Origin: Octopus vulgaris
Taxonomy: Eukaryota
Direction of reading: 5' to 3'
NCBI GenBank assembly: GCA_951406725.2
Contig: OX597816.1
Location: 8,618,001-8,682,000 of the forward strand
Length of the DNA: 64,000 nucleotides
Shown here: one piece after another, positions 21,481 to 64,000 of the stretch
How the letters are laid out: each line of letters opens with the position of its first letter
Position numbering within the stretch: position 1 is the stretch's first letter
Program-made: the position numbers and the translations under genes
Notes under the pieces: generated by a model
What the model saw: only the letters and a program-made list of their open reading frames with translations
Told to the model about the DNA's origin: nothing
Databases searched by the model: none

Positions 21481-23459
21481 ATATGTAAGCCTCGTTTTGG
21501 AAGAGCGGCTTTTTTTAAATGCTGAAATGTCGTTGAAAGAAATAAAACTTTGTGACTGAATTAAGAACTCTGTTTATTTGGAATTAATATGTCTATTTGT
21601 AAATTAAGGACTTTAATTGTTTCTTGTTTTACTTTTACAGTTATGCATATATTAAAATATGTTATTTTGAAATAATAACTCATTATCAGTTGGGGAAAAG
21701 AAAAGAGCACGGATCTTTTCCTTTTGATGAACGGCATTTTCTAGTTAACTAAACAATTTGAAAGGGCACAGATTCGGATGTAGTGAGGGACAAACATTTA
21801 AAATTGTAATTTTACGCTTTATTTGTTTCGGTTATTGGACGGTAGCCATTCTGAGGCACCGCCTTGAAGGGTTTAGGCAAACAAATAAACTCAGTACTGA
21901 TTTTTTTTTTTTTAATCTCTATTACAGTGCTTTTCAAACTTTTTGCTGGAGCGGAACCACAAGGAAACATTCCACTGGCTCGAGGAACCCCTGTGCAATA
22001 ATTTAATAGCCTTATGCACACATATCTGCACAGGAGAATTAAAAATTACTGCCGATTTTAGCAGTTTTGTAACTTCTTGCGGAACCCTGGTTGAAAACCA
22101 CTGCTCTTTATCGGTTTCTTGTCGAATAGCTAAGTTACGGGGACGTAAACAAACATAAACCGGTTCTCAAGCAGTAGAGAACAAATATACATACAACAGA
22201 CTTCCACACGGTTTCTGCCTACCATCTTCACCCATAAGGTACTAGTCTCCTAGGGCGAAAGGAAAAAACGTGCCTTCGGTGCCGCGCTGTGGGACTAAAC
22301 CTGGAACCACGTGATTGCAATAACTGCAAACAAGCACTTTATCAGCGGAGCGCTGTGGTTTAGACAAGATGTTTCGTTTTAGGAGGGGGGAGCGGCTCCT
22401 AATTCATTAGCAGACAACGTAATTTCAAGAGTAAACTTTGGTTACGTAACTATTTGTGTAAATAAGTATTGTAGCTTGGGATCTTTTCTAAAAGATGGAC
22501 AGAATTTTCTACTTAACTAAATAATTTGAAACTTCGTATACTGGTAGAATGTGTCAAGAGAAAACATTAATTTCAATTAGTTTTTTTGAGAAAAATGTAT
22601 TTTGTAACTTTTACGTAGTTTAATTCTTCGAATTTTAACCAATCGTATTCTCTGTTTTAAGCTCAATTCATTCTGCCGTGTTATTCATCCTTATCACTGT
22701 CTTCTGTCTTCAAAGGCTTTTCCCATGTTTATTTCAATATCATCCTTGACTTACGGAACGATTACCTATGTGTGCGTGTGTGTGGACCCGATACCTCAAG
22801 GTATTTTAAGTTTCATTGTTCCAGAATCAACTACAGTTATTTTGAGTTTCATACAGCTGGATTTCGTGGCAATATTTGTACGTAAATACCCTGTAACCTA
22901 GATCTTACCTATACAACCTACCTGTTGAAAACTTCTGCTTAGAATTAAATTAAAAATTATCGAATTAAGCAAATAAAAAAAAAAGAATAACAAAGGGAGA
23001 TAACCCGAACAAGAAGTTGAGAAAGATTAGTCTCCCTTGGAAGAAGTCTTTCAAGTACAAATCAGAAATTGTAGGGCTCAAAGTCGAAAACTGAAATTAT
23101 CCAAGGGATGGGAATTCATTCACCCTAGAGGATCTTAAAAATCTAAAAAAACAAAAGAGTTAAGTCTAGATTAGCTTAATTTGGTTTGGCAGATAGGGAT
23201 GCTCCAAAATTGTCCATTGAACGAATTGCTTGTACTATAATGTGCTTAAATGTATAGTTACAACCATATGCCCACGTCATTACAGGTTTTACATCGGAAC
23301 CACGATTCATTTTAAGCAACGCTAACGTGCACACCTGTTAAGCTGAAAATTTACCTCGTTTTCTACATCCCTCGCAATCCACATACCCTACAATCTGTCC
23401 TGTTCCATAGTTTGCAGCGGAATTCCTCGGACATTCCTCTTTGGAGTGATCGATTTTTT

Positions 23460-31066: not shown

Positions 31067-31416
31067 TCAAGAAGTTGATCGAGCCTCTTCCACACTAACG
31101 GGGCTCCGAGTCCTACTCGTAGATTGATTGTTAGAGGTTCCGTCTAAAATTGCAGGATGCATTGTAAAATGTCCTGATGAATTTGAAGATGAAGATGCGC
31201 AGAGAGTTTTTACATGGACAGAGTTCATGTTCTCATGGTAAGTCAGCTGGCTGCTGTCCGGACTAGGAGACGTAGAATGCATAAGCAAACTACTACTGTC
31301 TGCTAGAAGGCCTTGTCGTTTGGATTTACTAATCTCCAATAAATGGTCAAAGCACTGAGACTTCCTCTTTAGTAATTCCTTCTTGTGTTCCGCTTCTGCA
31401 ACTCGACGTCGAAGTT
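31067..31416 (-). CDS. GMEB: GMEB-like terminal coding exon (ELRRRVAEAEHKKELLKRKSQCFDHLL...RSTS stop)
   Basis: ctttcttag| acceptor, phase 1, coiled coil followed by a Ser-rich tail, TGA at 31067-31069. The spliced CDS totals 1260 nt (419 aa) including the micro-exon. Confidence 0.88.
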
Positions 31417-33685: not shown

Positions 33686-33808
33686 CTTCCATTTCTTTAT
33701 CAAGTTTATCTTTCTGTCGTTCCATGTCAGTCTTGTGAGCTGCCAACCTGTATTTCAGTTTCGATGTCAAACCCAGTTCACTGACAACTCTAGAAACCTT
33801 CCGCACCT
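33686..33808 (-). CDS. GMEB: GMEB-like exon, coiled-coil region (EVRKVSRVVSELGLTSKLKYRL...KEME)
   Basis: attgcag| and |gtaaag, 123 nt, phase 1 to 1; within ORF 33567..33806; heptad-like composition. Confidence 0.88.
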
Positions 33809-36529: not shown

Positions 36530-36652
36530 CTTCAAGTGGACATTGGTTTCGAATGAGCTTATATTTTATATTGTCCAAGGTGTTCTTAAATTCCCGAAAT
36601 ATTTCATCAGCAAGTCCGAGCTCAATGATTCCTTTCCAAAATAGCTGACTTT
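36530..36652 (-). CDS. GMEB: GMEB-like exon (ESQLFWKGIIELGLADEIFREF...CPLE)
   Basis: FWKGIIELGL parallels GMEB FWKGIADVGL. tcttgtag| and |gtaagt, 123 nt, phase 1 to 1. Confidence 0.92.
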
Positions 36653-39700: not shown

Positions 39701-39838
39701 TATTTCATGAAACGAAGAACAGTTGTTAGTTGATGAAGTACAATGGCTATGTGGTTAAGCTACTAGAGCGATGATCACAGTCGTGAGCTCAAATCTTACC
39801 AGAGCCACCGGGCTGTGCTCCAACATAAGCCATCTCAC

Positions 39839-39871
39839 CAGTAGAACTAGCATGAGGAAATGTCTGTAAAA
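39839..39871 (-). CDS. GMEB: GMEB-like putative 33-nt micro-exon (VLQTFPHASST)
   Basis: Strong pyrimidine tract tttctttctttttgcag| and g|gtgaga; symmetric phase 1 to 1 with an open frame; no homology support. Confidence 0.55.
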
Positions 39872-43027: not shown

Positions 43028-43033
43028 CATCAG

Positions 43034-43066
<33 letters not shown>

Positions 43067-43446
43067 CTTCTTCAGTGTTTTCAGCTGTCACAGCTCTATG
43101 CAGAACCTGTACACTTGGTTTGACATCGGGGTCATCTTGGTTTTGCGATTGATTATGCAGAACCAGTACACTTGGTTTCACATCAGGGTCATCTTGATTT
43201 TGCGATTGATTAACATACGTATACTGACTTCCTACTGCTTCAGCAATTTTGCCAGAAGTCTGTTCAGAAACATAGAGATAATTGTTTTCTTTAATGCTAA
43301 TCCCAGTCCCTGCCAGCAGAGTTGAGATTGGGGCCAAAGTGCCATCATCAAATACCATTGTCTTCAATGGTACTCGCGGTACACAGCGACCTGTACACAT
43401 CTCTTGGTGATTAGTAAAATCCAACTGTCCTGATTCAATGTACTTC
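43028..43446 (-). CDS. GMEB: GMEB-like exon 2 (KYIESGQLDFTNHQEMCTGRC..., 19-aa tandem repeat, poly-Q)
   Basis: SGQLDF.NHQEMCTGRC parallels the GMEB post-SAND zinc-binding segment SGQIDFYQHDKVCSNTC. cccttcag| and |gtatgt, 419 nt, phase 2 to 1. Confidence 0.9.
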
Positions 43447-45375: not shown

Positions 45376-45587
45376 CTGAGTTGGATGCCATTCATTCGAA
45401 CAGCATTCTTCCAGTCTTTAAGCTTTTCTTTCTCGCCCATGACAGAAAACAGTTTCGGAGAGATAAAACGGCCTTCAAACTCAATACATTCTCGGTGAAT
45501 GCCAGGACAAATAAATTTCTCCATATGTAGTTTACCAACCAAATTTCCACAGGTGACTGTTATCACCCCTGCACTATCTTCAGTCAT
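45376..45587 (-). CDS. GMEB: GMEB-like (glucocorticoid modulatory element-binding protein family) transcription factor, SAND-domain exon
   Basis: VTCG...KFICPGI...FISPK.F...KLKDWKNAVRMNGIQLR is a SAND domain with the KDWK motif. cttacag|ATG and ag|gtattt, 212 nt. Confidence 0.93.
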
Positions 45588-46208: not shown

Positions 46209-46700
46209 TACAGGGTGTGCCACAAAAAAATGTACTTGCATTTTGACTCTCCATAACTCACTGGATTTTTCATTTCTTTTTGGATCAAATTGATCCTAAT
46301 AATGGCAGAAGTATGACAAAGATTTGAAGGAGAAAATTCATGAAAAAGTGCGACTTGGAAGCATTGAAACATCGTGGAAGTGCTAAGACAATTTGAAGTG
46401 ATTTTCAGAAAGATCCACCAGTGCAATGCAACACTGCTCGCATCCAAGATAAGTTTGAATCAGATGGAACTGTGCATGGCATCCATAAGGAACATTCAAG
46501 AAAGTAAGAGAAAAGGAATTGTCCTAAAGGAAAAAGAATTGATGGAAATCCTTCACTGTTCCCCACAAAAATCTGTATGACAAATGACTCATGAGAGCGG
46601 AATCCCTAAATCAAGCACCCGTCGCATTTTGAAGGGAGTCCGTTGGAAACGTTACATGTGAACATTAAACCATGCTCTAAATAAAGATGATTTATCCATT
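46209..46700 (+). mobile_element. Tc1/mariner-superfamily 5' remnant
   Basis: ta|cagggtgtgccac terminus followed by degraded HTH-like coding (RIQDKFESDGTV...SPQKSV); no second TIR seen. Confidence 0.55.
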
Positions 46701-47124
46701 TAACCATCAATCTTGTTTCTAAGACAATCAACAATGCATTTATTGTCATTTAAAGAGTGAGTACACTGGGGGGAGGGTGGATACCCTGGATATTGGCATG
46801 GATTGGATGGTTTGACAGGACCACCCAACTAACCAGAGGACTGTGCTGTGTTCCAGTGTATGCTTCAGCATGATTTCTACAGCTAGATACCCTTCCACAA
46901 CAAACAACCCATTAAATTCAGTTTCAAATTTTGACACAAGGGAGGGTCAAGTCAATCACATCAACCTCCCCAGTGCATAACTGCTATTTCTCTTTTCAAC
47001 CAACTTCAACTTAGAATATAAAGACGAATGAAATGGTGCTAAGCATTTTGACCAGTGAGCTAATGATTCTGCCAGCTTGCTGTCTGAAACAACTCATTAA
47101 CTTCAACCAATGAAGTTAATGAGT

Positions 47125-47642
47125 TCCCTAGTGCGAACAATTCTCCTTTACGGCAGCGAGTCATGGCCGATGAGGGTGGAAGATATTAAGCGACTAGAAT
47201 CCTTCGATCACCTCTGTCTACGCCACATCTTTCATGTCCGATGGCATCACTTTGTCTCCAACAATTCGGTGCGACACCAGTGCAGAATCACCTCCCTCCG
47301 ACAAGTCATTCTAACGAGACATTGGCTGCGTCATGCCTGTCGTCGTCAACCAGGAGAATTCATCTACGAAGCAATTGCCCTAGCTCCCCTTCAGGGTTGG
47401 CGAAAGTGATGTAGTGGACAATGAAAAACCTGGCTGATGACAGTCAAGGCTGATCTGGAACCCAACCTAGACACCATATCTACGGCGTTCACCGCTGGAA
47501 TAAGGAGTGGTTGGAGATCACGCGGTCGTTAGCCTCAAATCACCAGGTCTGGTCAGCGTTTGTGAGAGATGCAGCATTGAGGATGAATGAAGCCAGCTCA
47601 ACCCACCCCGGGTGAATGCTGTCTCAAGACAAGAAAAGACAA
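47125..47642 (+). mobile_element. RTE LINE 3' fragment of a second family; mirrored at ~63580-64000
   Basis: VRTILLYGSESW...LESFDHLCLRHI...WLRHACRR (ORF 47110..47409) with a caaga-repeat tail. Confidence 0.8.
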
Positions 47643-48225
47643 TGATGATGATGGCTTAACTGTCTTCATAGAGGTTATCCTAAGACATTAGTCCATGCTC
47701 TAAATGAAGACAATTTATCCATTTACGCATTTAATCAGCAATCTTGTTTCTAAGACAATACTGAGGTATTTAACCCTTGAGTTACCACATTTCTGTTGAA
47801 ATACATTATTTCACTTTACACATTAATTTTTTTTAAATAACGAAGAATTTAATGAATTAACTTTGTCATTTTTAAGTTGATGTTTCCAACATAATTTAAC
47901 AAGAAATTTTGATGGAAAGTTTTAAGATGATTTTAAAATGGGAAGTCTGTACCATAAAGCCAGGGGCAATGTCGGATGGTTTGGTATCAAAAGTGTTTAA
48001 ATAGAAACCTAATTACATGAGATTTCAATTGGTCAACACCAACATAATATATATAAACCAATACATAAATTTACAGGTTTTTCACTAAATACTTTGAAAA
48101 TCTTGATTATATTGAACATTTATAGGAATACATAGACAGGCTACTTGTTAAAATGCAGTTAAAGAAAGTGTGAAGCAAGAACCGTGCTGGACTACATGGC
48201 AATACAGGAATTACCATAATTGATG

Positions 48226-49565
48226 TCAACAAGAGTCACGGCCCTGACGGCATACACCCACGGGTTATCAAAGCGTTGGCTCCGGTCATCTGCGAGCCCT
48301 TAACATGACTATTCAATATGTCATTGGCGACGGGTGTTATACCTGCAGACTGGAGAACAGCGATAATCTGCCCAATTTTCAAGAAAGGGAGCCGCGAAGA
48401 CCCGCTTAACTACCGACCGGTTTCCTTACATCAATAATCAGCAAGATGTTCGAAACCATCCTTAAGAAAAGTATGATGCTCCACCTCCTAAACACAGCCT
48501 CGATCACTGATTCCCAACACGGCTTCGTGCCGAAGAGATCATGCTTGACCAACTTACTAGTAATGGAAGAATTGGTGACGCGCATCCTCGATGATAGTAA
48601 TGCTGTTGACATCGTTTTATTGGACTTTGCCAAAGCTTTTGACTCGGTAAACCACCGCCTACTACTTGTCAAGCTTCAAGCATATAGTTTCCATCCGGAT
48701 ATTGTACGATGGGTTGGTGCCTTCCTCTCAGATCGCTCCTTCCAAGTTCAAGTTAATGGTTCGCGGTCCGACGTCTCCAGTGCAAGCAGTGGCGTGCCTC
48801 AAGGTTCAGTGCTTGGGCCCTTGTTGTTCTTAGTCTTCATAAATGACTTGCCCGACGACCTCACGCAACACACCCTTCTATTTGCCGACGATATCAAACT
48901 GGTCGCTCCTCGCGGTAGTATAGAGGATCTTCGTCGATGCCTCCACCAAATTTGGAAGTGGTCTAACGATTGGGACCTGTGTCTGAATGTGTCAAAGTGC
49001 TGTCATCTGCCTGTCGGCTCTACTCCTGCAACTCAACTTGATTTCGAGCCGGGTCGTCTGCTGCTGGAGAGGACCGATCAGGTAAAGGACCTGGGTATCT
49101 TGGTGGATTCCTCCTTTTCGTCTTCGGCCCAGTGCGTCCATGCTGCCAACAAAGCGCGCGGAATTCTGTTTTTGATTCGACGGTCATTCGGAATGCTCAC
49201 AGCAGCCATATTCCTGCCACTCTATGTCACGCTGGTGAGACCCATATTGGAGTATGGGATTCAAGCCTCTTCTCCTTATCTCCTCAAAGACATACAGCAC
49301 CTCGAAAGAGTCCAGAGGCTGGCTACCCGCATGATTCATGGTCTCAAAAATTTGTCCTATGAAGAAAGGCTGAGGACGCTCGACCTTTATTCTCTTGAAA
49401 AACGCCGCCGCCGTGGTGATCTCATTCTCGCCCACAACATCATAAGCGGGAAGTGTAACCTCTCGAAAGAGCTGTTCTTCACTCCTGCTCCGGAGCGTCG
49501 GCTGCGGGGTCATTCCGAAAAGCTCTACCTGCGACGATTTCATCTCAATCGAAGGAGAGGAGCTT
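48226..49565 (+). mobile_element. CR1-type LINE ORF2 (reverse transcriptase) fragment, truncated at both ends
   Basis: KSHGPDGIHP, NYRPVSL, QHGF, DFAKAFD, GVPQGSVLGP and FADD motifs; ORF 48446..49582. Ends at RRGA with no 3' UTR and is absent from the right arm. Confidence 0.93.
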
Positions 49566-52004
49566 TATTATTATTATTATGACGATGAGAGCAATGCATG
49601 CCATCAAAGTGATGGTGGGGTACAAATATACGAAGCCCTATATACTATCTGATAAGGATACACCAGGCACATACATAAAAACCATGTGACATGGTGACCT
49701 CATATCAAGATGAACAGCACATGACCTCACAGGTGGAACCCAGTTATAATTTTCTTCAGGTCGAGTTCATCCTGCTTAAAACATCCCTGAATAAGGGTTA
49801 AGGACGATGGGTGAATCACTTCTCAACACATGGTTATGATGCTCCCCCACTATTTCTGCTTGTGATAAGAGATGCACATAGCATCAGCCATTAGGTGACA
49901 TGCACAACTGGTTACAGTTAAGCAGCTGACAAGCAAATCTGTGGTATTGAGCAGAATATTTGCTGTAGCCCATCTTTTACATCAAGATAAAACATGTACA
50001 TGTTAACACTTCCAATCAATTATGATCAGAAGCCATGAGAACCACAGCCTGGTACTGCATCAGAGCATTCATTATTATTATTAATTGGCAAACTAGCAAA
50101 GAAATCTTTAGCATGTCAGGCAAATCGCTTAGTGGCATTTCTTTTGGCTCTTTCCCTGGTTCTTAGTTCAAATACTACCAAGGCTGGCTTTTTGCAGTCA
50201 CCCTTCTAGGGTTTCATAAGATAAATATCTTTTCTAATCTAGGCAGAAGGACTGAAATTTTTGGAGAGGGGGCCAGTCGTTTAGATCGACTCCAGTGCGC
50301 AACTGGTACTTATCGACCCCAAAAGGATACAAGGCAAAGTCGACCACGGCGGAATTTGAACTCAGAACATAAAAGACAGACGAAATACTGCTAAGCATTT
50401 CGCCTTTCATAAAATAAATTCCACCAAAGCACTGATATCAACATATTACCGTATTTTAACGTGTATAAGGAACCTATTTTTGTCAAAACTTAGGTTTAAA
50501 AAATATGGGAGTTTCTTACACATGGATAGTATTATAATCTTTTTTTTTTCCCAAATTTTAAGAACCCCAAAATTAGGGGGTTCCCTATACACGTTAAAAT
50601 ACGGTCTTTTGTTGCCAGTTGAAATCATTATCACTTTTATAATTTTCTTTTTTTTGTTTTTATGACCGGGTCAAAAGCTTTAGTTTGACCCTTACGGTTA
50701 CTCTCCGGTAGTTTATTCTGCTTTTGTCTCAAATTTGTTTTTTCCCTACTTTCTGGGTCAATAAAATAAAGTGCTATAAACAACTGCTACCTTTCCTGCA
50801 AAAGAAAAAAAAAAAGAAAAAAATTCTGGCCTTCTGCCTGTGCTAGAAATAACAACTGTTATTTCTCATTCCTCGGTGAGGAAGCAGACAGGAAGAAAAC
50901 ACAACTCTAGGCAGAAGAAGAGTTGTCTAAATTCCATGATAGGTGTGAAGGTAACAAGTGCTTGCTTGCACATTTATTGTTGTTGTTGTTGTTCCACAAC
51001 TCTGCCTTTCGTCCTTTCCGGGACGATAAAATGAAATAGCAGTCAAGTCCCGGGGTCGGTGTAACCAGCTGTCCCCATCTGTCCCCTTTTCTGGAAATTG
51101 TTGGATTTGTGCCAAGATCAGAACGAATTATTATTGTTGTTATAAAAATATATTTAGACAAAAGTTTTAAGAGCCAAATATAACCAAATTCTCTAAATGT
51201 GTTTAGTAAAGAAAGATCACGTTCGCAAAGCACAGGTCGATGACATACGGGTGCGTTCGGGGTCACTACCTGCTACAAAAGAGTAGCTAAATCTCCCTCA
51301 AACGAAACACTTACGTATTTTATTGTGAACTATTCAAGTATTTGTGTGGACTATACGAGTATAATTGCTGTCTTTACTTGACTTATTGCGGTTCTTTTGC
51401 TCCTACCATCACCTTTCATCCTTTTCCGACAAGTTGTGTTCTAAAGCCCCGGGGGGTGGGGAAAATGCTGAGCGATATTTGTTGCAGTTCTTTACGTTCC
51501 CAGATCAAATCCCAGACTAACGTTTTGTCTTCCATGGGTCGATTAAATAAGTAACAGTCAAGTCCTGGGATCGATCTAATCCACGAACCACCTCCCCATA
51601 AAATTTCAGGCCTTGTCTATTCGTAGAAAGAATTATTGTTATTATTATTATTATTACTAAGGTGGCGAACCTGCAGAATCCGTTTAGAGCCTCGCAGTGT
51701 TACCTCCGGGTCTTTACGTTCCCAGTTCGAACTCCACCGACGTCGACATCAACCCCCCCCCCCAGCATCCCTGAAAACTGAGGCCCTTGTCCCTAAATCG
51801 GAAATTATAATTATTATTTGATATGCGACGACGAGAAGGTCATGGATGGAGACTTTTCGATTAAAGGCATGCTGTATCAATAAGAACATAAAGGAAAATA
51901 ATACAAACAATAAATAATAATAATAATAATAGTAATTGCATGTGTGTGTGTGTGTGTGTGTTGTATGAAGAACAAAGAAAGAAAAAACTTGGTTTTATAC
52001 CCAC

Positions 52005-52939
52005 CTTTGATTAAAAGTATGACAGGTAGAAACCAGGTGAGCAGCAGGGACGGAGATTAGTGAGGATTCGTGGGGAAGACGGAAATAACGGATGAAACCA
52101 AATAGGGTGGTAACATATAATATAGAGAGGAAGAAGGAATATATATATGTGGGTACATCATTGATTCTATTGTCTTGCCTCCATAACTTCAATAACAACA
52201 CTGACCAAGAGAGAGAGAGGAATGCTGCAATGACCATATATATATATAGATATAGATATATGTATATATAAATGTGCCCACCCACACAGAGGAGAGGGGA
52301 AACTATTATCGTACAACAGTTGGGAGAGAGAGGAAAAGTTACGTTGTCATGAAAGAACTTAGCAAAGTTCGATCGATCGATTTTGCGGGAATTTAAGCGA
52401 TTATATCATATATTTATTACTTTGTTAAGTGGTGTAGGTATATTTTGTGTGTGATTATAAAATAATGTCGTGAAATTCTAAGAGATTTGAGGGAGAATGG
52501 TGTCTTTTTTTTGTTTGTTTGTGGAGTTTTTGTTGTTAGTTTTTTTTCTTTAAGGTCGACGTTTTTGGAAGAAATCGGGAGAAAAGAAAATATGGCGAGA
52601 AAAAAAAGGGAAAGAGTGTTCTAAAGGAGAGGAAAAGTTGGATGAAAGCATGGTAAGAATTGTGGTTTGCGCCTGAAGACGGTAACGTGCCCCATTTTAA
52701 CGTCGAGAAACAAATATGGACGTTGCTTTGAACGGAAACGGACACTGACGTCATTGACGTTTCCCTTACGTCACGACTCGGTGTGACACGTGAGCGTTGC
52801 GTTCCGCCAACCCCGTCGCGAGTTCGTCGCCGCCTTCGCCGTCATCGTCGTCGTTTTAACGAAGTCGTTGGGTGACGTTGGTTTTGAAAAGGAAGAGGAA
52901 AAGTAAGAGGAGAGAACAACAGAGAATGGTTGACCTCCT
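52005..52939 (-). promoter_or_regulatory. Putative GMEB-like promoter and 5' UTR exon (CpG-rich; CRE, E-box and ACGT cluster)
   Basis: CpG-dense block 52680-52880 with TGACGTCA (52746-52753), TTACGTCA (52766-52773) and CACGTG (52787-52792). Candidate donor aag|gtgggt at 52004, ~6.4 kb upstream of the SAND exon. Confidence 0.55.
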
Positions 52940-53384
52940 ACCACACGGCTATGTCATGTGCTTGCTAGACTAGCCTCGTTCTGGAAACTGTATTGAACTC
53001 TTTCGAAAAGTTGAGGTTTTGAAGGAATATTGATTGATTTGCGGCGAGTTTGATAAAAGATAATAAAAATAAAGTTATCGTCGAAAGAAGTAAACATCCC
53101 ACACGCAATTCTGATTTACAACGGAATCCATTTCATTTTTAGTCGAATAAATGAATCTCAGTAATTATTTTTTTAAAAGCCTAATATTTATTCTAGCGGA
53201 CTCTTGCGAACCTCTAAGTTACGGGGATGTAAAAAAAACCAACACCGGTTGTAGAGCGGTGGGAGACAGGCAGACACAAAGACATGCACGCACACACACG
53301 CACGCAAAACATATAATCGTCCTTTCTACGACAGGCACAAGGCCTGAAGTTTTTTGGGGGTGGGGAAGAGGCGAGTCGATTACA

Positions 53385-53899
53385 TGGACCCAACTGGTAC
53401 TTAATTTATCGATCCCGAAAGGATGAAAGGGGAAGTCGACCTCGGCGAAATTTGAACCCAGAACGTAGCAACGGGCGAAATACCTATTTCTTTGCTACCC
53501 ACAAGGGGCTAAACACAGAGGAGACAAACAAGGACAGATAGGCGGATTAAGTCGATTACATCGACCCCAGTGCGTAACTGGTACTTAATTTATCGACCCC
53601 GAAAGGATGAAAGGCAAAGTCGACCTCGGCGGAATTTGAACTCACAACGTAACGCAGACGAAATACCTATTTCTTTATTACCCACAAGGGGCTAAACACA
53701 GAGGCAACAAACAAGGACAGACATAGGTATTAAGTCGATTACATCGACCCCAGTTCGTAACTGGTACTTAATTTATCGACCCCCGAAAGGATGAAAGGCA
53801 AAGTCGACCTCGGCGGAATTTGAACTCACAACGTAACGCAGACGAAATACCGCTAAGCATTTCGCCCGGCGTGCTAACGTTTCTGCCAGCTCGCCGCCT
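53385..53899 (-). mobile_element. SINE (family B) tandem array, about 3 units
   Basis: Repeated gtcgacctcggcggaatttgaactc...gaaatacc units with a ~183-bp period. Confidence 0.88.
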
Positions 53900-55785
53900 C
53901 AACAAACATGTAAGATATACACAGCGGACTTCTTTCACTTTCCATTTATCAACTCCACTCACAAGGCTTTAGTCGGCTCGAGGCTATAGTAAAAAACACT
54001 TGCTCGTCGTCGGGAAGTAGGTTTCTTACTACACAATTTATTATTGTTATTTATCTTTTTTGAAAACTCGCTGATGTTTACATATTTCAGTGAAAGATGC
54101 ACAAATGGCATAGTAAGTTAGGGTGTTGTAATCACAATCGTCAAATCGTGGATTCGGTTCCCGGACCGGGCAGCGCGTTGTGTCCTTGAGCAAAACAGTT
54201 CATAGCATGTCAGGCTGCAGGTGAGAGCGCGGTAGAATCGTTGGCGTGTCGGCAGATATGCTTTATGAGATATCGTCCAGCTGCCTACATTCTGGGTTCT
54301 AATCCCACCTGACTGGAGAAGGAAACAGGAAACTGTTCCAGTATTAGTCCCAAATCTAGTCATGGAAGTAATCTACTTGACGGTGGAAGTGGGGTAAGGG
54401 CCCTCTCAGGTCATATAGAGAGTGCTGGAGAAAGTTTACATGCACAGGACTTACCAAGGGCAGACAACCGCTCGACTCTTATATTTTACATTTATTTAAA
54501 TTATTTCATTTCGAAGTGTAAGCGTCTAGTTGAACAAGAATCTTCTGATATGGCTCAGGCCAACCAAAACTTTGTGAATGGGTGGGGTTGATGGAAACTG
54601 AAAGAAGCCCTTTGTATGAACATAAACCTGAAAAAAGAAATAAGTACTGAGATTAATTAAATCGACTAAACCCTTTAAGGCAGTGCTCTATCATGGCCAC
54701 ATGTCAATGACTGAAACAAGTAAAAAGATAGCCTCTTCTGGGCGCAATCGGTCCAATGTAGACACCTATACTTTGGCTTCTAGGAGAACCGGGTATGTCA
54801 GGTGATGCGCTGGCAGAGGGAATGGAAAGTAAGTGGGTTCTATGAATAAATGTGTGTTCTTTTATCTTATACTTGTTCACTCATTAGGCTACGGTCATGC
54901 AGTGGGACTGAACTCGGAACCATGTGTTTCAAATATGAGATAGAAGCAGCGCTAGTGTAATAACATTATCAACCACATATACTTAACGTATATATCGGTT
55001 GTTTGCGATTTGACATGGTGGAGAAGACTCTCTCAAAGTGCCGGGTGTTAAAACACCTGAACGTTATGGACAGGCAAGATAAATCCCCTCTAATACCATC
55101 CAGGAGTGATGGACATTGATCCTTCGCCATTTTCGTGGCTTATCAACATCACGTAACCGAACAGGATCTGAGATGGATCATTTCATCAGTTCACGTGCAA
55201 ACTGTGTGGATGTGCCCGGACAATGCATACGAAAAAATAAATTCAGATATGAATTTATTGCATTAACGCTGCTTCCATTTCCTATCAGTAAAGGCAGATA
55301 AAGTAGGCTGAATGTATATTTACATGGAATATTAAATACAGAGTACGGAATGAAGTAAACGGAAGAAGTTATGTAATCGTTTTGTCTCGACAGCTGTTTC
55401 AGGTGCACCACGGCTTATGCCGTAGACACATTCTTATGTAACAAAGGTGCATGATGTCTTAGGGGTGTGTAATAACATAGGTCCGAATTAATTTATTAAG
55501 CAGATCACCTTCATTGGAAGGAAGATTCCAAGGTCGTATTTTCATAAGTAAAGGTTTATAGAAAACACAATAGAGGTACTAAGGAAAATGTTCGAGGGAG
55601 GATAAGAAACGGTTAACGAGGTGGGGAGATTAAAGAGGAATTAGCAGAATGAAACTCAGAGAGAGGAGGGATAAAGACTATTGTGCTCGCCTTAGAGTTG
55701 TTAGGTAGTTTGTTAAACAATACAGAAAAAAGGAGAGGCAACAGTAGCAAACGTCATTAAGGAGAAAGCAGGTTATAAAGGAAGA

Positions 55786-56823
55786 AAGACGGCGAACTGG
55801 CAGAAACGTTAGCACGCCGGGCGAAATGCTTAGCAACATTTCGACTGCCGCTACGTTCTGAGTTCAAATTCCGCCGAGGTCGACTTTGCCTTTCATCCTT
55901 TCGGGGTCGATTAAATAAGTACCAGTTAGTAAAGGGACAAGCTAGTTTGTACAGTAAAAATTATGACGATTTCATGTAGTTGGAGAAAGTTTCGTAGCAT
56001 TTGTGATAACATTCAATGGGGTTGATATAATCGACTTAATCCATTTGTCTGTCCTTGTTTGTCCCCTCTGTATTAAGCCCCTTGTGGGTAGTAAAGAAAT
56101 AGGTATTTCATCTGCCTTTACGTTCTGAGTTCAAATTCCGCCAAAGTCGACTTTGCTTTTCATCCTTTCGGGGTCGATTAAATAAGTACCAGTTACGCAC
56201 TGGGGTCGATATAATCGACTTAATCCATTTGTCTGTCCTTGGTTGTCCCCTCTGTATTTAGCCCCTTGTGGGTAATAAAGAAATAGGTATTTCATCTGCC
56301 TTTACGTTGTGAGTTCAAATTCCGCCGAGGTCGACTTTGCTTTTCATCCTTTCAGGGTCGATTAAATAAGTACCAGTTACGCACTAGGGTCGATGTAATC
56401 TACTTAATCCATTTGTCTGTCCTTGGTTGTCCCCTCTGTATTTAGCCCCTTGTGGGTAGTAAAGAAATAGGTATTTCATCTGCCTTTACGTTCTGAGTTC
56501 AAATTCCGCCGAGGTCGACTTTGCTTTTCATCCTTTCAGGGTCGATTAAATAAGTACCAGTTACGCACTAGGGTCGATGTAATCGACTTAATCCATTTGT
56601 CTGTCCTTGGTTGTCCCCTCTGTATTTAGCCCCTTGTGGGTAGTAAAGAAATAGGTATTTCATCTGCCTTTACGTTCTGAGTTCAAATTCCGCCGAGGTC
56701 GACTTTGCTTTTCATCCTTTCAGGGTCGATTAAATAAGTACCAGTTACGCACTGGGATCGATGCAATCGACTTAATCCGTTTGTCCCGTCTGTGTTTAGC
56801 CCCTTGTGGGTAGTAAAAGAAAT
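55786..56823 (+). mobile_element. Head-to-tail SINE (family B) concatemer with a 184-bp period
   Basis: Units restart at 56102, 56286, 56470 and 56654; one 16-bp TSD aggttataaaggaaga at 55770-55785 and 56824-56839. Confidence 0.92.
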
Positions 56824-57102
56824 AGGTTATAAAGGAAGATAGATAAAAGTAAATAAAGCCGCGGGTGAAGGAGGCGCGTCGGTAAGAGAGAAGGTGAGTG
56901 TTAGAGAATTACGATTAGTAAAGGTGGAAGCTAGTTTGTGCAGTAAAAATTGTGACGATTTCATGGAGTTGGAGAAAGTTTTGTAGCATTTGTGATAACA
57001 TTCAAAAATTATGTCAGAGAATCGATTTAGCTTCGAAGTCTTGTTGTGGCGAAATATAGTGAGCGGCACGTGGCAACATACTGGACAAACGCACCAATCT
57101 GC

Positions 57103-57888
57103 TGTCCGAGGAATTCCGCTGCCAACTATGGAACAGGACAGATTATAGAGTATGTCCTTATAGGGTATGTGGATTGCGAGGAATGTAGAAAACGAGGTAA
57201 ATTTTCAGATTAACAGGTGTGCACGTTAGCGTTGCTTAAAATGAATCGTGGTTCCGATGTAAAACCTGTAATGACGTGGGCATATGGTTGTAACTATACA
57301 TTTAAGCACATTATAGTACAAGCAATTCGTTCAATGGACACTTTTGGAGCATCCCTATCTGCCGAACCAAATTTAAGCTAATCTAGACTTAACTCTTGTT
57401 TTTTTAGATTTTTAAGCTCCTTTAGAGTGAATGAATTCCCATCCCTTGGATAATTTCAGTTTTTGACTTTGAGCCCTACAATTTCTGATTTGTACTTAAA
57501 AAAAAAAAAGACTTCTTCCAGGGGAGACTAATCTTTATAAACTACTTGTCTGGGTTATCTCCCCTGGTTATTCTTTTTTTGATTTTTTAAATTCAATACC
57601 TATTTCTTTACTATCCACAAGGGGCTAAAGACAGAGAGGACAAACAAACGGATTAAGTCGATTATATCGACCTCAGTGCATAACTGGTACTTAATTTATC
57701 GACCCCGAAAGGATGAAAGGCAAAGTCGACCTTGGCGGAATTTGAACTCAGAACGTAACGGCAGACGAAATACCGCTGAGCATTTCGCCCGGCGTGCTAA
57801 CGTTTCTGCCAGCTCGCAATACCCTTTAATTACATTCTAAGCAGAAGTTTTCAACAGGTAGTTTGTATAGGTGAGATCTAGGTACAGG
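57103..57888 (-). repeat. Inverted copy of 22890-23433 (with a SINE inserted at 57601-57816), fused to the right arm
   Basis: tgtccgaggaattccgct...gatctaggtacagg is the reverse complement of cctgtaacctagatc...agcggaattcctcggaca. The SINE is flanked by TSD caatacc. Confidence 0.93.
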
Positions 57889-60800
57889 AGGTCAACCATT
57901 CTCTGTTGTTCTCTCCTCTTACTTTTCCTCTTCCTTTTCAAAACCAACGTCACCCAACGACTTCGTTAAAACGACGACGATGACGGCGAAGGCGGCGACG
58001 AACTCGCGACGGGGTTGGCGGAACGCAACGCTCACGTGTCACACCGAGTCGTGACGTAAGGGAAACGTCAATGACGTCAGTGTCCGTTTCCGTTCAAAGC
58101 AACGTCCATATTTGTTTCTCGACGTTAAAATGGGGCACGTTACCGTCTTCAGGCGCAAACCACAATTCTTACCATGCTTTCATCAAACTTTTCCTATCCT
58201 TTAAAACACTCTTTCCCTTTTTTTTTTTTTCTCGCCATATTTTCTTTTCTCCCGATTTCTTTCAAAAACGTCGACCTTAAAGAAAAAAAATTAACAACAA
58301 AACCTCCACAAACAAACAAAAAAAGACACCATTCTCCCTCAAATCTCTTAGAATTTCACGACATTATTTTATAATCACACACAAAATATACCTACACCAC
58401 TTAACAAAGTAATAAATATATGATATAATCGCTTAAATTTCCGCAAAATCGATCGATCGAACTTTGCTAAGTTCTTTCATGACAACGTGACTTTTCCTCT
58501 CTCCCAACTGTTGTACGATAATAGTTTCCCCTCTCCTCTGTGTGGGTGGGCACATTTATATATACATATATCTATATCTATATATATATATGGTCATTGC
58601 AGCATTCTCTCTCTCTGGTCAGTGTTGTTATTGAAGTTATGGAGGCAAGACAATAGAATCAATGATGTACCCACATATATATATTCCTTCTTCCTCTCTA
58701 TATTATATGTTACCACCCTATTTGGTTTCATCCGTTATTTCCGTCTTCCCCACGAATCCTCACTAATCTCCGTCCCTGCTGCTCACCTGGTTTCTACCTG
58801 TCATACTTTTAATCAAAGGTGGGTATAAAACCAAGTTTTTTCTTTCTTTGTTCTTCATATAACACACACACACACACACACACATGCAATTACTATTATT
58901 ATTATTATTATTATTATTTATTGTTTGTATTATTTTCCGTTATGTTCTTCTTATTGATACAGCATGCCTTTAATCGAAAAGTCTCTCCATCCATGACCTT
59001 CTCGTCGTTGCATATCAAATAATAATTTCCGATTTAGGGACAAGGGCCTCAGTTTTCAGGGATGCTGGGGGAGAGGGATTGATGTCGACGTCGGTGGAGT
59101 TTGAACTGGGAACGTAAAGACCCGGAGGTAACACTGCAAAGATCTAAACGGATTCTGCAGGTTCGCCACCTTCATAATAATAATAATAATAACAATAATT
59201 ATTTCTACGAATAGACAAGGCCTGACATTTTATGGGGAGGTGGTTAGTGGATTAGATCGATCCCAGTACTTGACTTACTTATTTAATCGACCCATGAAAG
59301 ACAAAAGTCAAGTCTGGGATTTGATCTGAGAACCTAAAGAACTGCAACAAATATCGCTCAGCATTTTCCCCCACCCCCGGGGCTTTAGAACACAACTCGT
59401 CGGAAAAGGATGAAAGGTGATGGTAGGAGCAAAAGAACCGCAATAAGTCAAGTAAAGACAGCAATTATACTCGTATAGTCCACCAAAATACTTGTATAGT
59501 TCACAATAAAATATGTTATTCGGTGTCCTACGGTAAGAGTTTCGTTTGAGGGAGATTTAGCTACTCTTTTGTAGCAGGTAAGTCACCCCGAACGCATCCG
59601 TATGTCATCGACCTGTGCTTTGCGAACGTGATCTTTCTTTACTAAACACATTTAGAGAATTTGGTTATATTTGGCTCTTAAAACTTTTGTCTAGATATAT
59701 TTTTATAACAACAATAATAATTCGTTCTGATCTTGGCACAAATCCAACAATTTCCAGAAAAGGGGACAGATGGTTACACCGACCCCGGGACTTGACTGCT
59801 ATTTCATTTTATCGTCCCGGAAAGGACGAAAGACAGAGTTGTGCAACAACAACAACAACAACAATAAATGTGCAAGCAAGCACTTGTTACCTTCACACCT
59901 ATCATGGAATTTAGACAACTCTTCTTCTGCCTAGAGTTGTGTTTTCTTCCTGTCTGCTTCCTCACCTAGAAATGAGAAATAACAGTTGTTATTTCTAACA
60001 CAGGCAGAAGGCCAGAATTTTTTTCTTTTTTTTTTCTTTTGCAGGAAAGGTAGCAGTTGTTTATAGCACTTTATTTTATTGACCCAGAAAGTAGGGAAAA
60101 AACAAATTTGAGACATGGGCTGGATTTGAACATAAAAAAGCAGAATAAACTACCGGAGAGTAACCGTAAGGGTCAAACTAAAGCGTTTTTAGCCCGTTAT
60201 AAAAAGAAAATTATAAAAGTGATAATGATTTCAACTGGCAACAAAAGACCGTATTTTTTAAACCTAAGTTTTGACAAAAATAGGTTCCTTATACACGTTA
60301 AAATACGGTAATATGTTGATATCAGTGCTTTGCTGGAATTTATTTTATGAAAGGCGAAATGCTTAGCAGTATTTCGTCTGTCTTTTATGTTCTGAGTTCA
60401 AATTCCGCCGTGGTCGACTTTGCCTTGTATCCTTTTGGGGTCGATAAGTACCAGTTGCGCACTGGAGTCGATCTAAACGACTGGCCCCCTCTCCAAAAAT
60501 TTCAGTCCTTCTGCCTAGATTAGAAAAGATATTTATCTTATGAAACCCTAGAAGGGTGACTGCAAAAAGCCTGCCTTGGTAGTATTTGAACTAAGAACCA
60601 GGGAAAGAGCCAAAAGAAATGCCACTAAGCGATTTGTCTGACATGCTAAAGATTTTTTTGCTAGTTTGCCAATTAATAATAATACTGTATGCCCTGGTGC
60701 AGTACCAGGCTGTGGTTCTCATGGCTTCTGATCATAATTGATTGGAAGTGTTAACATGTACATGTTTTATCTTGATGTAAAAGATGGGCTACAGCAAATA

Positions 60801-61608
60801 TTCTGCTCAATACCACAGATCTGCTTGTCAGCTGCTTAACTATAACCAGTTGTGCATGTCACCTAATGGCTGATGCTATGTGCATCTCTTATCACAAGCA
60901 GAAATAGTGGGGAAGCCTCATAACCATGTGTTGAGAAGTGTTTCACCCATCGTCCTTAACCCTTATTCAGGGATGTTTTAAGCAGGATGAACTCGACCTG
61001 AAGAAAATTATAAGTGGGTTCCACCTGTGAGGTCATGTGCTGTTCATCTTGATATGAGGTCACCATGTCACACATATGGTTTTTATGTATGTGCCTGGTG
61101 TATCCTTATCAGATAGTATATTGGGCTTCGTATATTTGTACCCCACCGTCACTTTTATCGCATGCATTGCTCTCATCGTCATAATAATAATTTTAAAATT
61201 TTGGCACAAGGCCAGGAATTTTAGAGATAGAGAATAAATCAATTGAATTGACTCCAAGTTCTTCACTGGTACTTATTATCGACCCCAAAACAAGGATGGG
61301 CAGATCTTGTATGCTATGTTCCTTTAATGCCCTAAACATTTTCCCCTTGAATATGCTGTGCATCTTTTATACCATCAATTATGGTAATTCCTGTATTGCC
61401 ATGTAGTCCAGCACGGTTCTTGCTTCACACTTTCTTTAACTGCATTTTAACAAGTAGCCTGTCTGTGTATTCCTATAAATTTTCAATATAATCAAGATTT
61501 TCAAAGTATTTAGTGAAAAACCTGTAAATTTATGTATTGGTATGTATATATTATGTTGGTGTTGACCAATTGAAATCTCATGTAATTAGGTTTCTATTTA
61601 AACACTTT

Positions 61609-63237
61609 GCTCCTGGGAGCTCCTCTATGCTGATGACCTGGCTCTCATAGCAGAATCACTACCGGAACTAGAAAAGAAATTTCGGGTTTGGAAGCAAGGG
61701 TTAGAATCAAAGGGCCTTAGAGTAAATGTAGCAAAGACCAAAGTTATAGTAAGCAGAAAGGCGAACTCAGCACACACCCCTTCGGGCAGGTGGCCCTGCT
61801 CGATTTGTAGGAAAGGTGTAGGTAGAAACTCCATAAGATGTACCCAGTGTAAGCTATGGACGCATAAGAGGTGCAGCAACATCAAAGGGAAATTAACTGA
61901 TAAGATAGCTTTCATGTGCAGCAGATGCACAGGGACAATAGACACCACAGATACTCAGAAAACAGATTCCATCACACTCCAGGGGGAGAAACTAGAAGTA
62001 GTTGATAGTTTCCGCTACCTGGGTGACCAAGTTAGTAGTGGAGGTTAGCACGCCGGGCGAAATGCTTAGCGGTATTTTGTCTGCGTTACGTTGTGAGTTC
62101 AAATTCCGCCGAGGTCGACTTTGCCTTTCATCCTTTCGGGGTCGATAAATTAAGTACCAGTTATGCACTGGGGTTGATGTAATCGACTTAATACCTATGT
62201 CTGTCCTTGTTTGTCCCCTCTGTGTTTAGCCCCTTGTGGGTAATAAAGAAATAGGAGGTGGATGCTCAGAGAGTGTCACCACTAGAATACGAATAGCCTG
62301 GGCAAAGTTTAGAAAGCTCCTACCCCTACTGGCGACAAAGGGTCTCTCGCTCAGAGTGAAAGGTAGATTGTATGATGCATGTGTGCAAACTGCCATGCTT
62401 CACAGTAGTGAAACATGGGCCTTGACTGCAGAGGACATGCGTAGACTTGAAAGAAATGAAGCTAGCATGATCCGCTGGATGTGTAAAGAAGTGCCGCTCC
62501 CAAACAGTTGAAGGTATCAGGGAGAGAGGTAGACCCAGGAAGACATGGGATGAGGTAGTCAAGAATGACCTCAGAGCGTTGGGCCTCATAGAGGCAATGG
62601 CGAAGGACCGAGATCTCTGGAGATATGCTGTGACTGCAAAGACCCGGGCTGCTTCCTGCACCAGTTCTGCATAGCCGCTGCCCATTCAAAGTACCTTGGA
62701 TTCCAGAACATCCCGCTGTGCTTGAGGAGACCTATTGAGTCAATTACATGAACATCGAAATAAATATCAATGGAAATAGTAGTTGTGATACTTGTGCCAG
62801 TGGCACATAAAAAGCACCATCCGAACGTGGCCGATGCCAGCGCCGCGTTGACTGGCTTCTGTGCTGGTGGCACATAAAAAGCACCATCCGAACGTGGCCG
62901 ATGCCAGCCCCGCGTTGACTGGCTTCTGTGCCGGCGGCACATAAAAAGCACCATCTGAATGTGGCCGATGCCAGCGCCACCTTGACTGACTTCCGTGTCA
63001 GTGGCACGTTAAAAGCACCAACTGATTGTGGCCGATGCCAGACTCCCCTGGCACCTGTGCTGGTGGCACGTAAAAAGCTCCCACTACACTCGCGGAGTGG
63101 TTGGCGTTAGGAAGGGCATCCAGCTGTAGAAACACTGCTAGATCAGACTGGAGACTGGTGCAGCCCCTGGCTTCCCAGACCCCGGTCAAACCGTCCAACC
63201 CGTGCTAGCGCGGAAAACGGACATTAAATTATGATGA
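61609..63237 (+). mobile_element. 5'-truncated RTE-type LINE (YADD, PHD-like finger, thumb region, 3' UTR with ~67-bp tandem units, (GAT)n tail)
   Basis: LLYADDLALIAES...FRYLGD...RIRIAWAKFRKL...RGRPRKTW. Absent from the left arm, whose empty site is at ~47990. Confidence 0.92.
62046..62253 (+). mobile_element. SINE (family B) nested in the RTE ORF
   Basis: TSD ggaggt at 62040-62045 and 62254-62259; the RTE reading frame resumes across it. Confidence 0.9.
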
Positions 63238-64000
63238 TGATACCAAACCATCTGACATTGCCCATGGCTTTATGTTACAGACTTCCCATTTAAAATCATC
63301 TAAGTTAAAACTTTCCATTAAAATTTAATGTTAATTTATGTTGGCAACATCAACTTGAAGTTAATTCATTAAATTCTTTGTTATTTGATAAAAAGTTAAC
63401 GTGTAAAGTGAAACAATGAATTTCAATAGAAATGTGGTAACACAAGGGTCAAATACCTCAGTATTGTCTTAGAAACAAGATTGCTGATTAAATGCATAAA
63501 AGGATAAATTGTCTTCATTTAGAGCATGGACTAATGTCTTAGGATAACCTCTATGAAGACTGTTAAGCCATCATCATCATTGTCTTTTCTTGTCTTGAGA
63601 CAGCATTCACCCGGGGTGGGTTGAGCTGGCTTCATTTATCCTCAATGCTGCATCTCTCACAAACGCTGACCAGACCTGGCGATTTGAGGCTAACGACCGC
63701 GTGATCTCCAACCACTCCTTATTCCAGCGGTGAATGCCATAGATATGGGGTCTAGGTTGGGTTCCAGATCAGCCTTGACTGTCATCAGCCAGGTTTTTCA
63801 TTGTCCACTACATCACTTTCGCCAACCCTGAAGGGGAGCTCTGGGGCAATTGCTTTGTAGATGAATTCTCCTGGTTGGTGACGGAGGGCATGACCCAGCC
63901 AACGCAGCCAATGTCTCGTTAGAATGACTTGTCGGAGGGAGGTGATTCTGCACTGGTGTCGCACCGAATTGTTGGAGACAAAGTGATGCCATCGGACATG

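What the first reader, a model, noticed from the sequence alone, without database searches (positions are those of the whole stretch)
47233..64000. Large inverted duplication predicts a head-to-head pair of GMEB-like paralogs
Seen: at least 5.7 kb is mirrored around a 4.9-kb spacer (52940-57885). The arms are highly similar but carry scattered substitutions, microsatellite length changes, a ~95-bp deletion in a MITE (50500-50595 missing on the right) and independent retroelement insertions, so the copies have evolved separately. The promoter block is almost unchanged. Inference: a second, plus-strand GMEB-like gene starts near 58.1 kb, with its SAND exon ~1.6 kb beyond the window if collinear. 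Vertebrate GMEB1/GMEB2 act as homo- and heterodimers, so a young independent paralog pair would be of interest.
Basis: partly seen in the sequence, partly recalled or inferred. Interest (0 to 1): 0.7.

Follow-up and report, generated by a model that had tools for sequence, protein, structure and literature searches.

The report
Inverted, permuted duplication of octopus GMEB
In an octopus genome the likely promoter and first intron of the gene for the DNA-binding protein GMEB are present twice, back to back, and a scar at the junction suggests that the whole 30-kb gene was likely copied as a loop and re-inserted upside down, which would leave a near-identical twin gene just beyond the window.

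Summary
The inverted arms are real (47233-52939 / 57886-64000; 104 substitutions in 4225 columns, 2.46%; each arm has its own insertion or deletion). The left gene is a six-coding-exon, 432-aa (not 419) GMEB; its last three exons are identical to Octopus sinensis. That is the end-to-start junction of a 30-kb unit holding the whole gene, the signature of a circular-intermediate or template-switch duplication, so the second copy is predicted to be complete. Support: an O. vulgaris GMEB model takes its first 38 residues from arm DNA read toward the spacer, which fits two arms; octopus GMEB proteins show two exon-3 lineages shuffled onto one 3' half. The second gene lies outside the window and is not shown. 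The pair is likely old and exchanging sequence, not young and independent; the GMEB1/GMEB2 heterodimer analogy is weak. Known kind of event, new locus.

The parts
47233..52939 (.). Left arm: promoter, putative non-coding exon 1 and proximal intron 1 of the left GMEB gene (inferred ancestral copy)
57886..64000 (.). Right arm: inverted copy, runs off the window
52940..57885 (.). Spacer: unique CpG-rich DNA, SINE arrays and a decayed Penelope-like element; CpG o/e 0.85-0.91
22890..23433 (+). Segment X, left copy: decayed GIY-YIG (Penelope-like) fragment downstream of GMEB; marks the far end of the inferred 30,050-bp duplicated unit 22890-52939
57103..57888 (-). Segment X, right copy (31 substitutions in 539 columns once a SINE is removed), fused to the start of the right arm
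57886..57888 (.). Junction joining position 52939 to position 22890 at a 3-bp microhomology (CCT)
56950..57330 (-). Broken GIY-YIG frame; continues past the end of the left X copy
   Evidence: Pfam GIY-YIG E 0.22 directly; tblastn E 3e-10 to 4e-9 with P0123, P0125, P0126, of which P0123 has GIY-YIG at E 5e-4
57594..57823 (+). SINE with a 7-bp target duplication, present only in the right X copy
45376..45587 (-). GMEB coding exon (exon 2): starts at ATG, SAND domain with KDWK
   Evidence: (PF01342, E 7e-22)
43028..43446 (-). GMEB exon 3 (419 nt): end of SAND, zinc-ligand residues, 57-bp tandem repeat, Gln run
39800..39871 (-). GMEB exon 4 (72 nt, absent from some octopus isoforms)
36530..36652 (-). 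GMEB exon 5
33686..33808 (-). GMEB exon 6
31067..31416 (-). GMEB exon 7 to stop codon
51964..52339 (-). Longest substitution-free run between the arms (370 columns); holds the best minus-strand donor (GT at 52004); putative non-coding exon 1. Mirror donor GT at 58819 on +
   Evidence: exon status inferred
52641..52939 (.). Second substitution-free run (299 columns): CpG-rich block with 8 ACGT sites; mirror 57886-58184
51823..51838 (+). Exon 'a' of O. vulgaris model P0001, read toward the spacer; mirror 59013-58998 on -
52555..52652 (+). Exon 'b' of P0001 (strong acceptor, GTAAGA donor); mirror 58275-58173 on -, splice sites kept
48226..49565 (+). Left-only non-LTR RT element with a 390-codon open frame; about 175 bp of target lost
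61609..63237 (+). Right-only non-LTR RT fragment with nested SINE and a further repeat
50506..50601 (.). 96 bp of a MITE deleted from the right arm

Best explanation
The arms are an inverted duplication next to an octopus GMEB gene, and the right arm is likely the start of a complete second copy, made when a 30-kb unit (22890-52939) was likely joined end to start at a 3-bp microhomology and re-inserted upside down about 3-4 kb upstream of the original promoter. Shown: the arms; the GMEB gene; the copy of 22890-23433 fused to the promoter end. Inferred steps: (1) the ancestral order was NUP35 promoter - X - 3' flank - GMEB body - intron 1 - promoter - spacer; (2) the unit closed into a circle (or a replication fork switched template) at 52939|22890; (3) it was opened in the 3' flank, beyond X, so the gene stayed whole, and inserted in inverted orientation somewhere in about 54-56 kb; the new copy reads X' - promoter - intron 1 - exons; (4) the arms then gained their own retroelements and indels, while the two promoter/exon-1 blocks were kept by selection or gene conversion; (5) the copies have exchanged coding sequence. 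The likely effect is a second, near-identical GMEB transcription factor gene transcribed away from the first (a dosage increase, not a new heterodimer partner). My odds per step: real duplication 0.9; left copy ancestral 0.75; second coding copy beyond the window 0.7; one-step circle or template switch rather than tandem duplication plus inversions 0.7.
For: Junction: 57103-57598 matches 23433-22958 and 57825-57888 matches 22954-22890, ending where the arm match 57886-58000/52939-52825 begins; the three sequences share CCT at the join. X has no third copy in the window, and the left copy has no match to the spacer beyond it. No target duplication of 7-12 bp of the arm end lies in the spacer, so the right X does not look like a simple insertion. 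This end-to-start order with 1-2 bp microhomology and breakpoints in repeats is the signature described for circular-intermediate duplications (PMC7450558, passages). Direction: unmasked CpG o/e is 0.33 in the GMEB body, 0.44 and 0.39 in the distal arms, 1.11 and 1.14 in the proximal arms, 0.91 and 0.85 in the spacer (spacer vs distal arms p 1.5e-4 and 9e-6); octopus methylates gene bodies and not intergenic DNA (PMC9476566, passages), so the distal arms were gene body (intron 1) and the spacer was not. Age and sharing: residues 1-38 of O. vulgaris P0001 equal, 38 of 38, two exons on the + strand of the left arm; no such match exists on the minus strand of 45588-57885 (8 of 33), so with this direction of transcription O. 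vulgaris needs an inverted arm too. At 6 of 6 differences between the arms in these exons P0001 has the left-arm state (two-sided p 0.03). Two coding lineages: at residues 95/96/117 the window gene equals O. sinensis P0008 (R,V,G) while O. sinensis P0005 equals O. vulgaris P0002 (H,A,E); exons 5-7 of the window gene equal P0005 at 198 of 198 residues, including changes absent from P0008 and P0002. A left-arm exon read across the spacer would reach a plus-strand gene, and P0001 carries the H,A,E type that the window's left gene lacks. Substitutions are clustered (two longest clean runs 669 columns; 2 of 5000 permutations reach it).
Against: No coding exon of the second copy is in the window. 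The homolog searches (15 hits, and the best 120 of 314 listed) show only one coding type in O. vulgaris (P0001 and P0002 agree where they overlap) and one cluster in O. bimaculoides; a curated table counts 1 GMEB in 'Octopus', species not stated in the passages seen (PMC9699675 table S2). The known second O. sinensis locus (P0007/P0008, truncated) lies on a different long contig (120 Mb against 174 Mb), so the allele mosaic could come from that locus or from allelic variation. X-X divergence (5.75%) is twice the arm mean (2.46%); 6 of 137 ordinary repeat pairs are as close, so two independent insertions of one family are not excluded. I could not show that the retroelement continues across 22890 (negative), so which junction is derived rests on parsimony and CpG. 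The part of the element beyond X (57102 downward) is missing on the left and needs a separate deletion. The opening/insertion point in the spacer was not resolved. The strongest donors in the promoter region are on the strand facing the spacer (52653, 52037, 52903; scores 5.2, 5.1, 4.3 against 4.6 for 52004, rough matrix), and one octopus methylation class leaves the first third of a gene unmethylated, which weakens the CpG argument.
Confidence: 0.55

Rival explanations
1. Same gene content, other route: a head-to-tail tandem duplication of 22890-52939 made the junction, and later inversions turned one copy round.
For: A 52939|22890 junction is exactly a tandem-duplication junction. Inverted SINE arrays in the spacer (53374-53899, 56014-56827) could seed inversions. 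Loss of the element's tail on the left could mark a breakpoint.
Against: Needs two inversions that reuse homologous breakpoints to give the observed order (my reconstruction; the same argument is made in PMC7450558).
Confidence: 0.15
2. Promoter-only duplication: GMEB is transcribed toward the spacer from the right arm, the spacer is intron 1, and the left arm is an inverted copy dropped into that intron; there is no second gene.
For: O. vulgaris P0001 uses exons read toward the spacer, which a single-copy locus of this layout would give directly. Strong GTAAGA donors face the spacer and are kept in both arms. Only one coding type is seen in O. vulgaris.
Against: It does not explain why the DNA next to the right promoter has a copy 30 kb away, cut at the same base. 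The spacer is not CpG-depleted while the distal arms are. All 6 informative changes would have to fall on the working copy (p 0.03). No breakpoint sign was found in 45588-47232 (weak test).
Confidence: 0.12
3. Assembly artefact: a second haplotype (perhaps one carrying a tandem duplication) was joined in reverse through a repeat in the spacer.
For: Molluscan heterozygosity is high (1.22% for O. vulgaris); SINE tandem arrays lie in the spacer; no read data were available.
Against: No gap; arm divergence 2.46%, up to 4.4-5.75% in unconstrained parts, exceeds that heterozygosity; both arms carry their own derived events; a haplotig would be collinear and would not create a base-exact permuted junction; an independent O. 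vulgaris assembly yields a model consistent with two arms.
Confidence: 0.1
4. The two X copies are independent Penelope-like insertions; the right one inserted with a 5' microhomology join and bridged or marked an inverted duplication whose extent X does not tell.
For: X is a GIY-YIG element. Penelope elements form 5' junctions by microhomology and can frame intron-containing host genes (PMC3846280, passages). X-X divergence exceeds the arm mean.
Against: Both copies end at the same base and share their stops and frameshift; only two copies in 64 kb, both at the ends of one unit.
Confidence: 0.08

Closest known systems
Segmental duplications via circular DNA intermediates (human cSDPs, PMC7450558; cattle KIT Cs29/Cs6 as cited there)
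   Same: Ends of the donor unit joined inside the new copy; microhomology of a few bases at the join; breakpoint in a repeat.
   Different: Here the copy sits 3-5 kb from its donor in inverted orientation rather than far away; only the closing junction is seen; the opening junction and the second half lie outside the window.
Vertebrate GMEB1/GMEB2 (SAND/KDWK family; PDB 1OQJ)
   Same: SAND domain with KDWK (PF01342); best solved match is GMEB-1 SAND, E 1.5e-22, with the Cys/His positions aligned; octopus relatives carry PF25892 plus PF01342 like vertebrate GMEB1.
   Different: GMEB1/2 are ancient, unlinked and divergent (recalled); the octopus copies would be neighbours about 99% identical apart from one repeat, so a mixed dimer would be nearly a homodimer. 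SAND starts at the N terminus.
O. sinensis GMEB loci P0004/P0005 (174-Mb contig) and P0007/P0008 (120-Mb contig, truncated)
   Same: Exons 5-7 identical to P0005; exon-3 residues 95/96/117 identical to P0008.
   Different: The window gene is a mosaic of the two, with a private 19-residue repeat and H217; it equals neither.
Penelope-like retroelements with GIY-YIG endonuclease
   Same: X matches GIY-YIG-bearing proteins over the endonuclease region.
   Different: Decayed, no RT shown, no terminal repeats or ribozyme found (Rfam); likely a passive breakpoint marker here.

Membership tests
GMEB (SAND/KDWK transcription factors) | SAND domain with KDWK motif | tested here: met
   PF01342 E 7e-22 on exon 2; 1OQJ E 1.5e-22 using P0005, whose first 70 residues equal the window's
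GMEB (SAND/KDWK transcription factors) | Zinc-ligand Cys/His residues in and after the SAND fold | tested here: met
   The Cys, His, Cys, Cys positions align with 1OQJ; their role as ligands is recalled, not tested
GMEB (SAND/KDWK transcription factors) | Second conserved helical domain (PF25892) | tested here: inconclusive
   Precomputed for P0001-P0008, and exons 5-7 equal P0005; the Pfam copy scanned gave no such hit
GMEB (SAND/KDWK transcription factors) | Homo- and heterodimer formation; binding to paired ACGT/CG half-sites | not tested
   No complex job was run; PIF binding to two ACGT motifs seen only as a reference title; PIF = GMEB1/2 is recalled
Circular-intermediate segmental duplication | Donor ends joined inside the derivative copy | tested here: met
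   52939 joined to 22890 at 57886-57888
Circular-intermediate segmental duplication | Only microhomology or short indel at the closing junction | tested here: met
   3-bp CCT
Circular-intermediate segmental duplication | Single opening point: the two ends of the derivative are adjacent in the donor | not testable with these tools
   The far end is beyond 64000; the near end has no counterpart left at the donor
Circular-intermediate segmental duplication | Ancestral and derivative copy told apart with an outgroup | tested here: inconclusive
   No eukaryotic genome collection; element continuity across 22890 not shown; CpG pattern favours left as ancestral
Head-to-head paralog pair | Two complete coding genes on opposite strands | not testable with these tools
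   Second gene outside the window; indirect support only; cluster members unavailable
Head-to-head paralog pair | Arms are paralogs, not alleles | tested here: inconclusive
   Divergence, private insertions, no gap favour paralogs; read depth not available
Penelope-like element (segment X) | GIY-YIG endonuclease | tested here: inconclusive
   Pfam E 0.22 directly; 3 of 5 phmmer hits align over the frame and 2 of those score GIY-YIG below the cut-off
Penelope-like element (segment X) | RT upstream, pseudo-LTRs or hammerhead ribozyme | tested here: not met
   No RT hit in 22561-23234 in three frames, none by search; no ribozyme at Rfam gathering scores. A decayed fragment may have lost them

The most novel reading that the evidence does not exclude
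The rearrangement cross-wired the two genes: each arm holds a bidirectional promoter, so each GMEB copy is driven both by its own arm and by the opposite arm's inward-facing promoter, whose exon splices across the spacer and the other arm (about 12-13 kb) onto the SAND exon, as in O. vulgaris model P0001. The inverted pair has been kept since before the vulgaris-sinensis split, swaps coding exons by conversion, and carries a doubled ACGT cluster through which GMEB could regulate itself.
Probability: 0.2. Interest if true: 0.6.

Novelty: new member of a known kind. Interest (0 to 1): 0.42.

Why it matters
If true, the common-octopus lineage has extra copies of a transcription factor counted as single-copy in octopus (PMC9699675 table S2), made by a duplication route documented at base level mainly in mammals. 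The locus would be a clean test case for circular-intermediate duplication in a mollusc and for concerted evolution between inverted neighbours. [quoted passage not shown] It does not by itself point to new GMEB biochemistry, since the copies are almost identical. I found no paper with both 'GMEB' and 'octopus' in the main text; that one search is the only basis for saying it is not in print.

Tried and rejected
Cluster membership of the octopus GMEB proteins could not be listed, so the number of annotated loci per assembly stays unchecked. Showing that the GIY-YIG element runs across 22890: word search 0 of 7 candidates, Pfam on three read-through frames gave only chance hits, the ESM Atlas gave scores of 0.80 or less; the spacing of motifs resembles a Neptune-type element from recall only. 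Strand skew did not tell the direction of transcription. CpG-decay polarity, 10 right against 4 left, is not significant (p 0.18). No target duplication for the right X. No coding exon candidates in the spacer on either strand. The 134-codon frame at 58424-58825 has no Met and only chance Pfam hits: not a gene. The Rfam mir-1 hit at 43923-44019 is the centre of a SINE-end palindrome, rejected. No tRNA. Supplements: no GMEB rows in the 3 files searched for PMC9712504 (one scanned PDF not searchable) or the 3 files of PMC9795677; one file of PMC9699675 was not searched; none available for PMC10700109; unseen files could hold gene ids and coordinates that settle copy number. No fold or complex job was run, because the family is clear from sequence and no binding is claimed. 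The genome collection is bacterial and archaeal and was not scanned; viral and metagenome collections stayed unchecked.


Full report
Observation. The mirrored arms are as described. Self-BLAST gives four inverted blocks covering 47233-52939 and 57886-64000, the last running to the window edge. They differ at 104 of 4225 aligned columns (2.46%), from 0 of 285 in the block next to the spacer to 33 of 747 (4.4%) in the most distal block. Each arm has derived events: a non-LTR RT element with loss of about 175 bp of target on the left, and an RT fragment and a 96-bp MITE deletion on the right. There is no N in the window. Ordinary repeat pairs differ by a median 12.4% (137 pairs).

The gene. Six coding exons on the minus strand (45587-45376, 43446-43028, 39871-39800, 36652-36530, 33808-33686, 31416-31067) give 432 aa with AG/GT boundaries. 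Exon 2 is a SAND domain and the best solved match of its relative P0005 is GMEB-1 SAND. [quoted passage not shown] Exons 5-7 equal O. sinensis P0005 at 198 of 198 residues, against 17 differences from O. vulgaris and 9 from O. bimaculoides, so the window is inferred to be O. sinensis or a very close relative. The next gene to the left is NUP35 (RRM_Nup35, E 3e-15).

The last 0.8 kb of the spacer is not unique. 57103-57888 is an inverted copy of 22890-23433 (segment X), which lies 7.6 kb downstream of the GMEB stop codon, and the match ends at the base where the right arm begins. The left arm end, the start of left X and the right junction share CCT. Read on one strand, the right locus joins the end of the unit 22890-52939 to its start. 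That unit is 30,050 bp and holds the whole gene. X is a decayed GIY-YIG, Penelope-like fragment (weak scores); its frame runs on in the right copy past the point where the left copy stops at a MITE. Joining of donor ends with a few bases of microhomology is the mark of duplication through a circular intermediate or a template switch (PMC7450558, passages read). If the circle was opened beyond X, in the 3' flank, the new copy carries every exon.

Which way does the promoter face? CpG o/e in unmasked DNA is 0.33 in the gene body, 0.44 and 0.39 in the distal arms, about 1.1 in the proximal arms and 0.85-0.91 in the spacer (p 1.5e-4 and 9e-6). Octopus methylates gene bodies and leaves intergenic DNA low (PMC9476566, passages), so the distal arms look like intron 1 and the spacer like intergenic DNA. 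The two longest substitution-free runs (52339-51964 and 52939-52641; 2 of 5000 permutations as long) cover the best minus-strand donor and the ACGT-rich block. Against this: the strongest donors face the spacer, and one methylation class spares the first third of a gene.

Evidence from other octopuses. O. vulgaris model P0001 has 38 extra N-terminal residues. They equal, 38 of 38, two exons on the plus strand of the left arm (51823-51838, 52555-52652), antisense to the left gene. Such a model needs arm DNA facing the SAND exon, which under the layout above means O. vulgaris has the inverted arm as well; the split is put at 2.5 My (bioRxiv 2023.05.16.540928, passages). At 6 of 6 arm differences in these exons P0001 has the left-arm state, and its coding exons are of the H95/A96/E117 type found in O. 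sinensis P0005, not the R/V/G type of the window gene and of the truncated O. sinensis locus P0008. A left-arm exon read across the spacer would reach a plus-strand gene, so the simplest reading is that P0005 is the predicted right-hand gene. This is inference: the left-arm states may be merely ancestral, P0001 may be an ab initio model (that annotation mixed ab initio and transcript evidence), and P0008 lies on another long contig. The window gene has a P0008-type exon 3 on a P0005-type 3' half, which needs exchange between copies or alleles. Against extra copies: only one coding type is seen in O. vulgaris among the listed hits, and a curated table gives one GMEB for Octopus (PMC9699675, part 1 of 3 of supplement file 3). 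Cluster members could not be listed.

Mechanism and rivals. Best reading (0.55): one-step end-joined or template-switch duplication of 22890-52939, re-inserted inverted upstream, giving two head-to-head GMEB genes about 6-7 kb apart at their putative first exons, with later conversion. Rivals: tandem duplication plus two inversions (0.15; same gene content), promoter-only duplication with the right arm as the true promoter (0.12), false duplication (0.10), independent X insertions (0.08). The weak points are the unresolved opening point, the missing left tail of the element, X-X divergence of 5.75%, and failure to prove that the element crosses 22890.

Comparison and novelty. The gene is a GMEB by sequence; dimer formation and DNA binding were not tested. 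The event works like known circular-intermediate duplications and meets two of their four features here; the other two could not be settled. The parallel with GMEB1/GMEB2 is weak because the candidate partner differs by 5 residues and one repeat. The block 52655-52939 has 8 ACGT sites, the joint maximum of the window with its mirror (10 of 1000 shuffles reach 8; block chosen after the fact); PIF recognises two ACGT motifs (reference title in PMC1185569), and PIF being GMEB1/2 is recalled, so autoregulation is a lead only. Papers: PMC7450558, PMC9476566, PMC3846280, PMC1185569, PMC9699675 and the O. vulgaris genome preprint were seen as search passages, not whole texts; PMC9712504 and PMC9795677 only through supplement searches. 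One search for 'GMEB' with 'octopus' found 0 papers.

Verdict. Observation confirmed; interpretation partly supported and extended. New member of a known kind; interest 0.42. The boldest open reading is cross-wired promoters serving both copies (probability 0.2, interest 0.6).

Noticed in passing
window 2998-3126 (-), putative promoter near 21470: The neighbouring gene is NUP35/Nup53 (RRM_Nup35, E 3e-15); further candidate exons at 17572-17457 and 9793-9673. The far end of the duplicated unit (22890) lies about 1.4 kb upstream of its putative promoter.
   Followed up: partly
window 43585-44359: A 775-bp palindrome, 97% perfect, in GMEB intron 2, 140 bp from exon 3, centred on a SINE end and containing a MITE in each arm. 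It could promote the exchange seen in exon 3. Its centre gives a false Rfam mir-1 hit.
   Followed up: partly
window 43104-43217 (-): A 57-bp tandem repeat in exon 3 adds 19 residues absent from all seven other cephalopod proteins aligned.
   Followed up: yes
P0007/P0008 (O. sinensis, 120-Mb contig): A further, truncated GMEB locus with two isoforms that ends within exon 6; shares V96 with the window gene.
   Followed up: partly
window 31330 and 30726 (-): O. vulgaris P0001 ends through an internal donor in exon 7 and a downstream acceptor; both sites are present in the window.
   Followed up: partly
window 53374-53899 and 56014-56827: Two tandem arrays of a 184-bp SINE unit face each other in the spacer; the second is flanked by a 91-105-bp direct repeat.
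   Followed up: no
window 28087-28314 (-): A second, different Penelope-like fragment downstream of GMEB (matches the N terminus of P0126, E 2e-5).
   Followed up: no
window 12787-13262: An imperfect 476-bp palindrome (82%) in a NUP35 intron.
   Followed up: no
window 41180-42380: Decayed mariner-like element in GMEB intron 3 (Transposase_1, E 0.04).
   Followed up: no
window 46662-46728: About 70 bp repeated at 47685-47759 and in the right arm at 63537-63463 (80%); origin unexplained.
   Followed up: no
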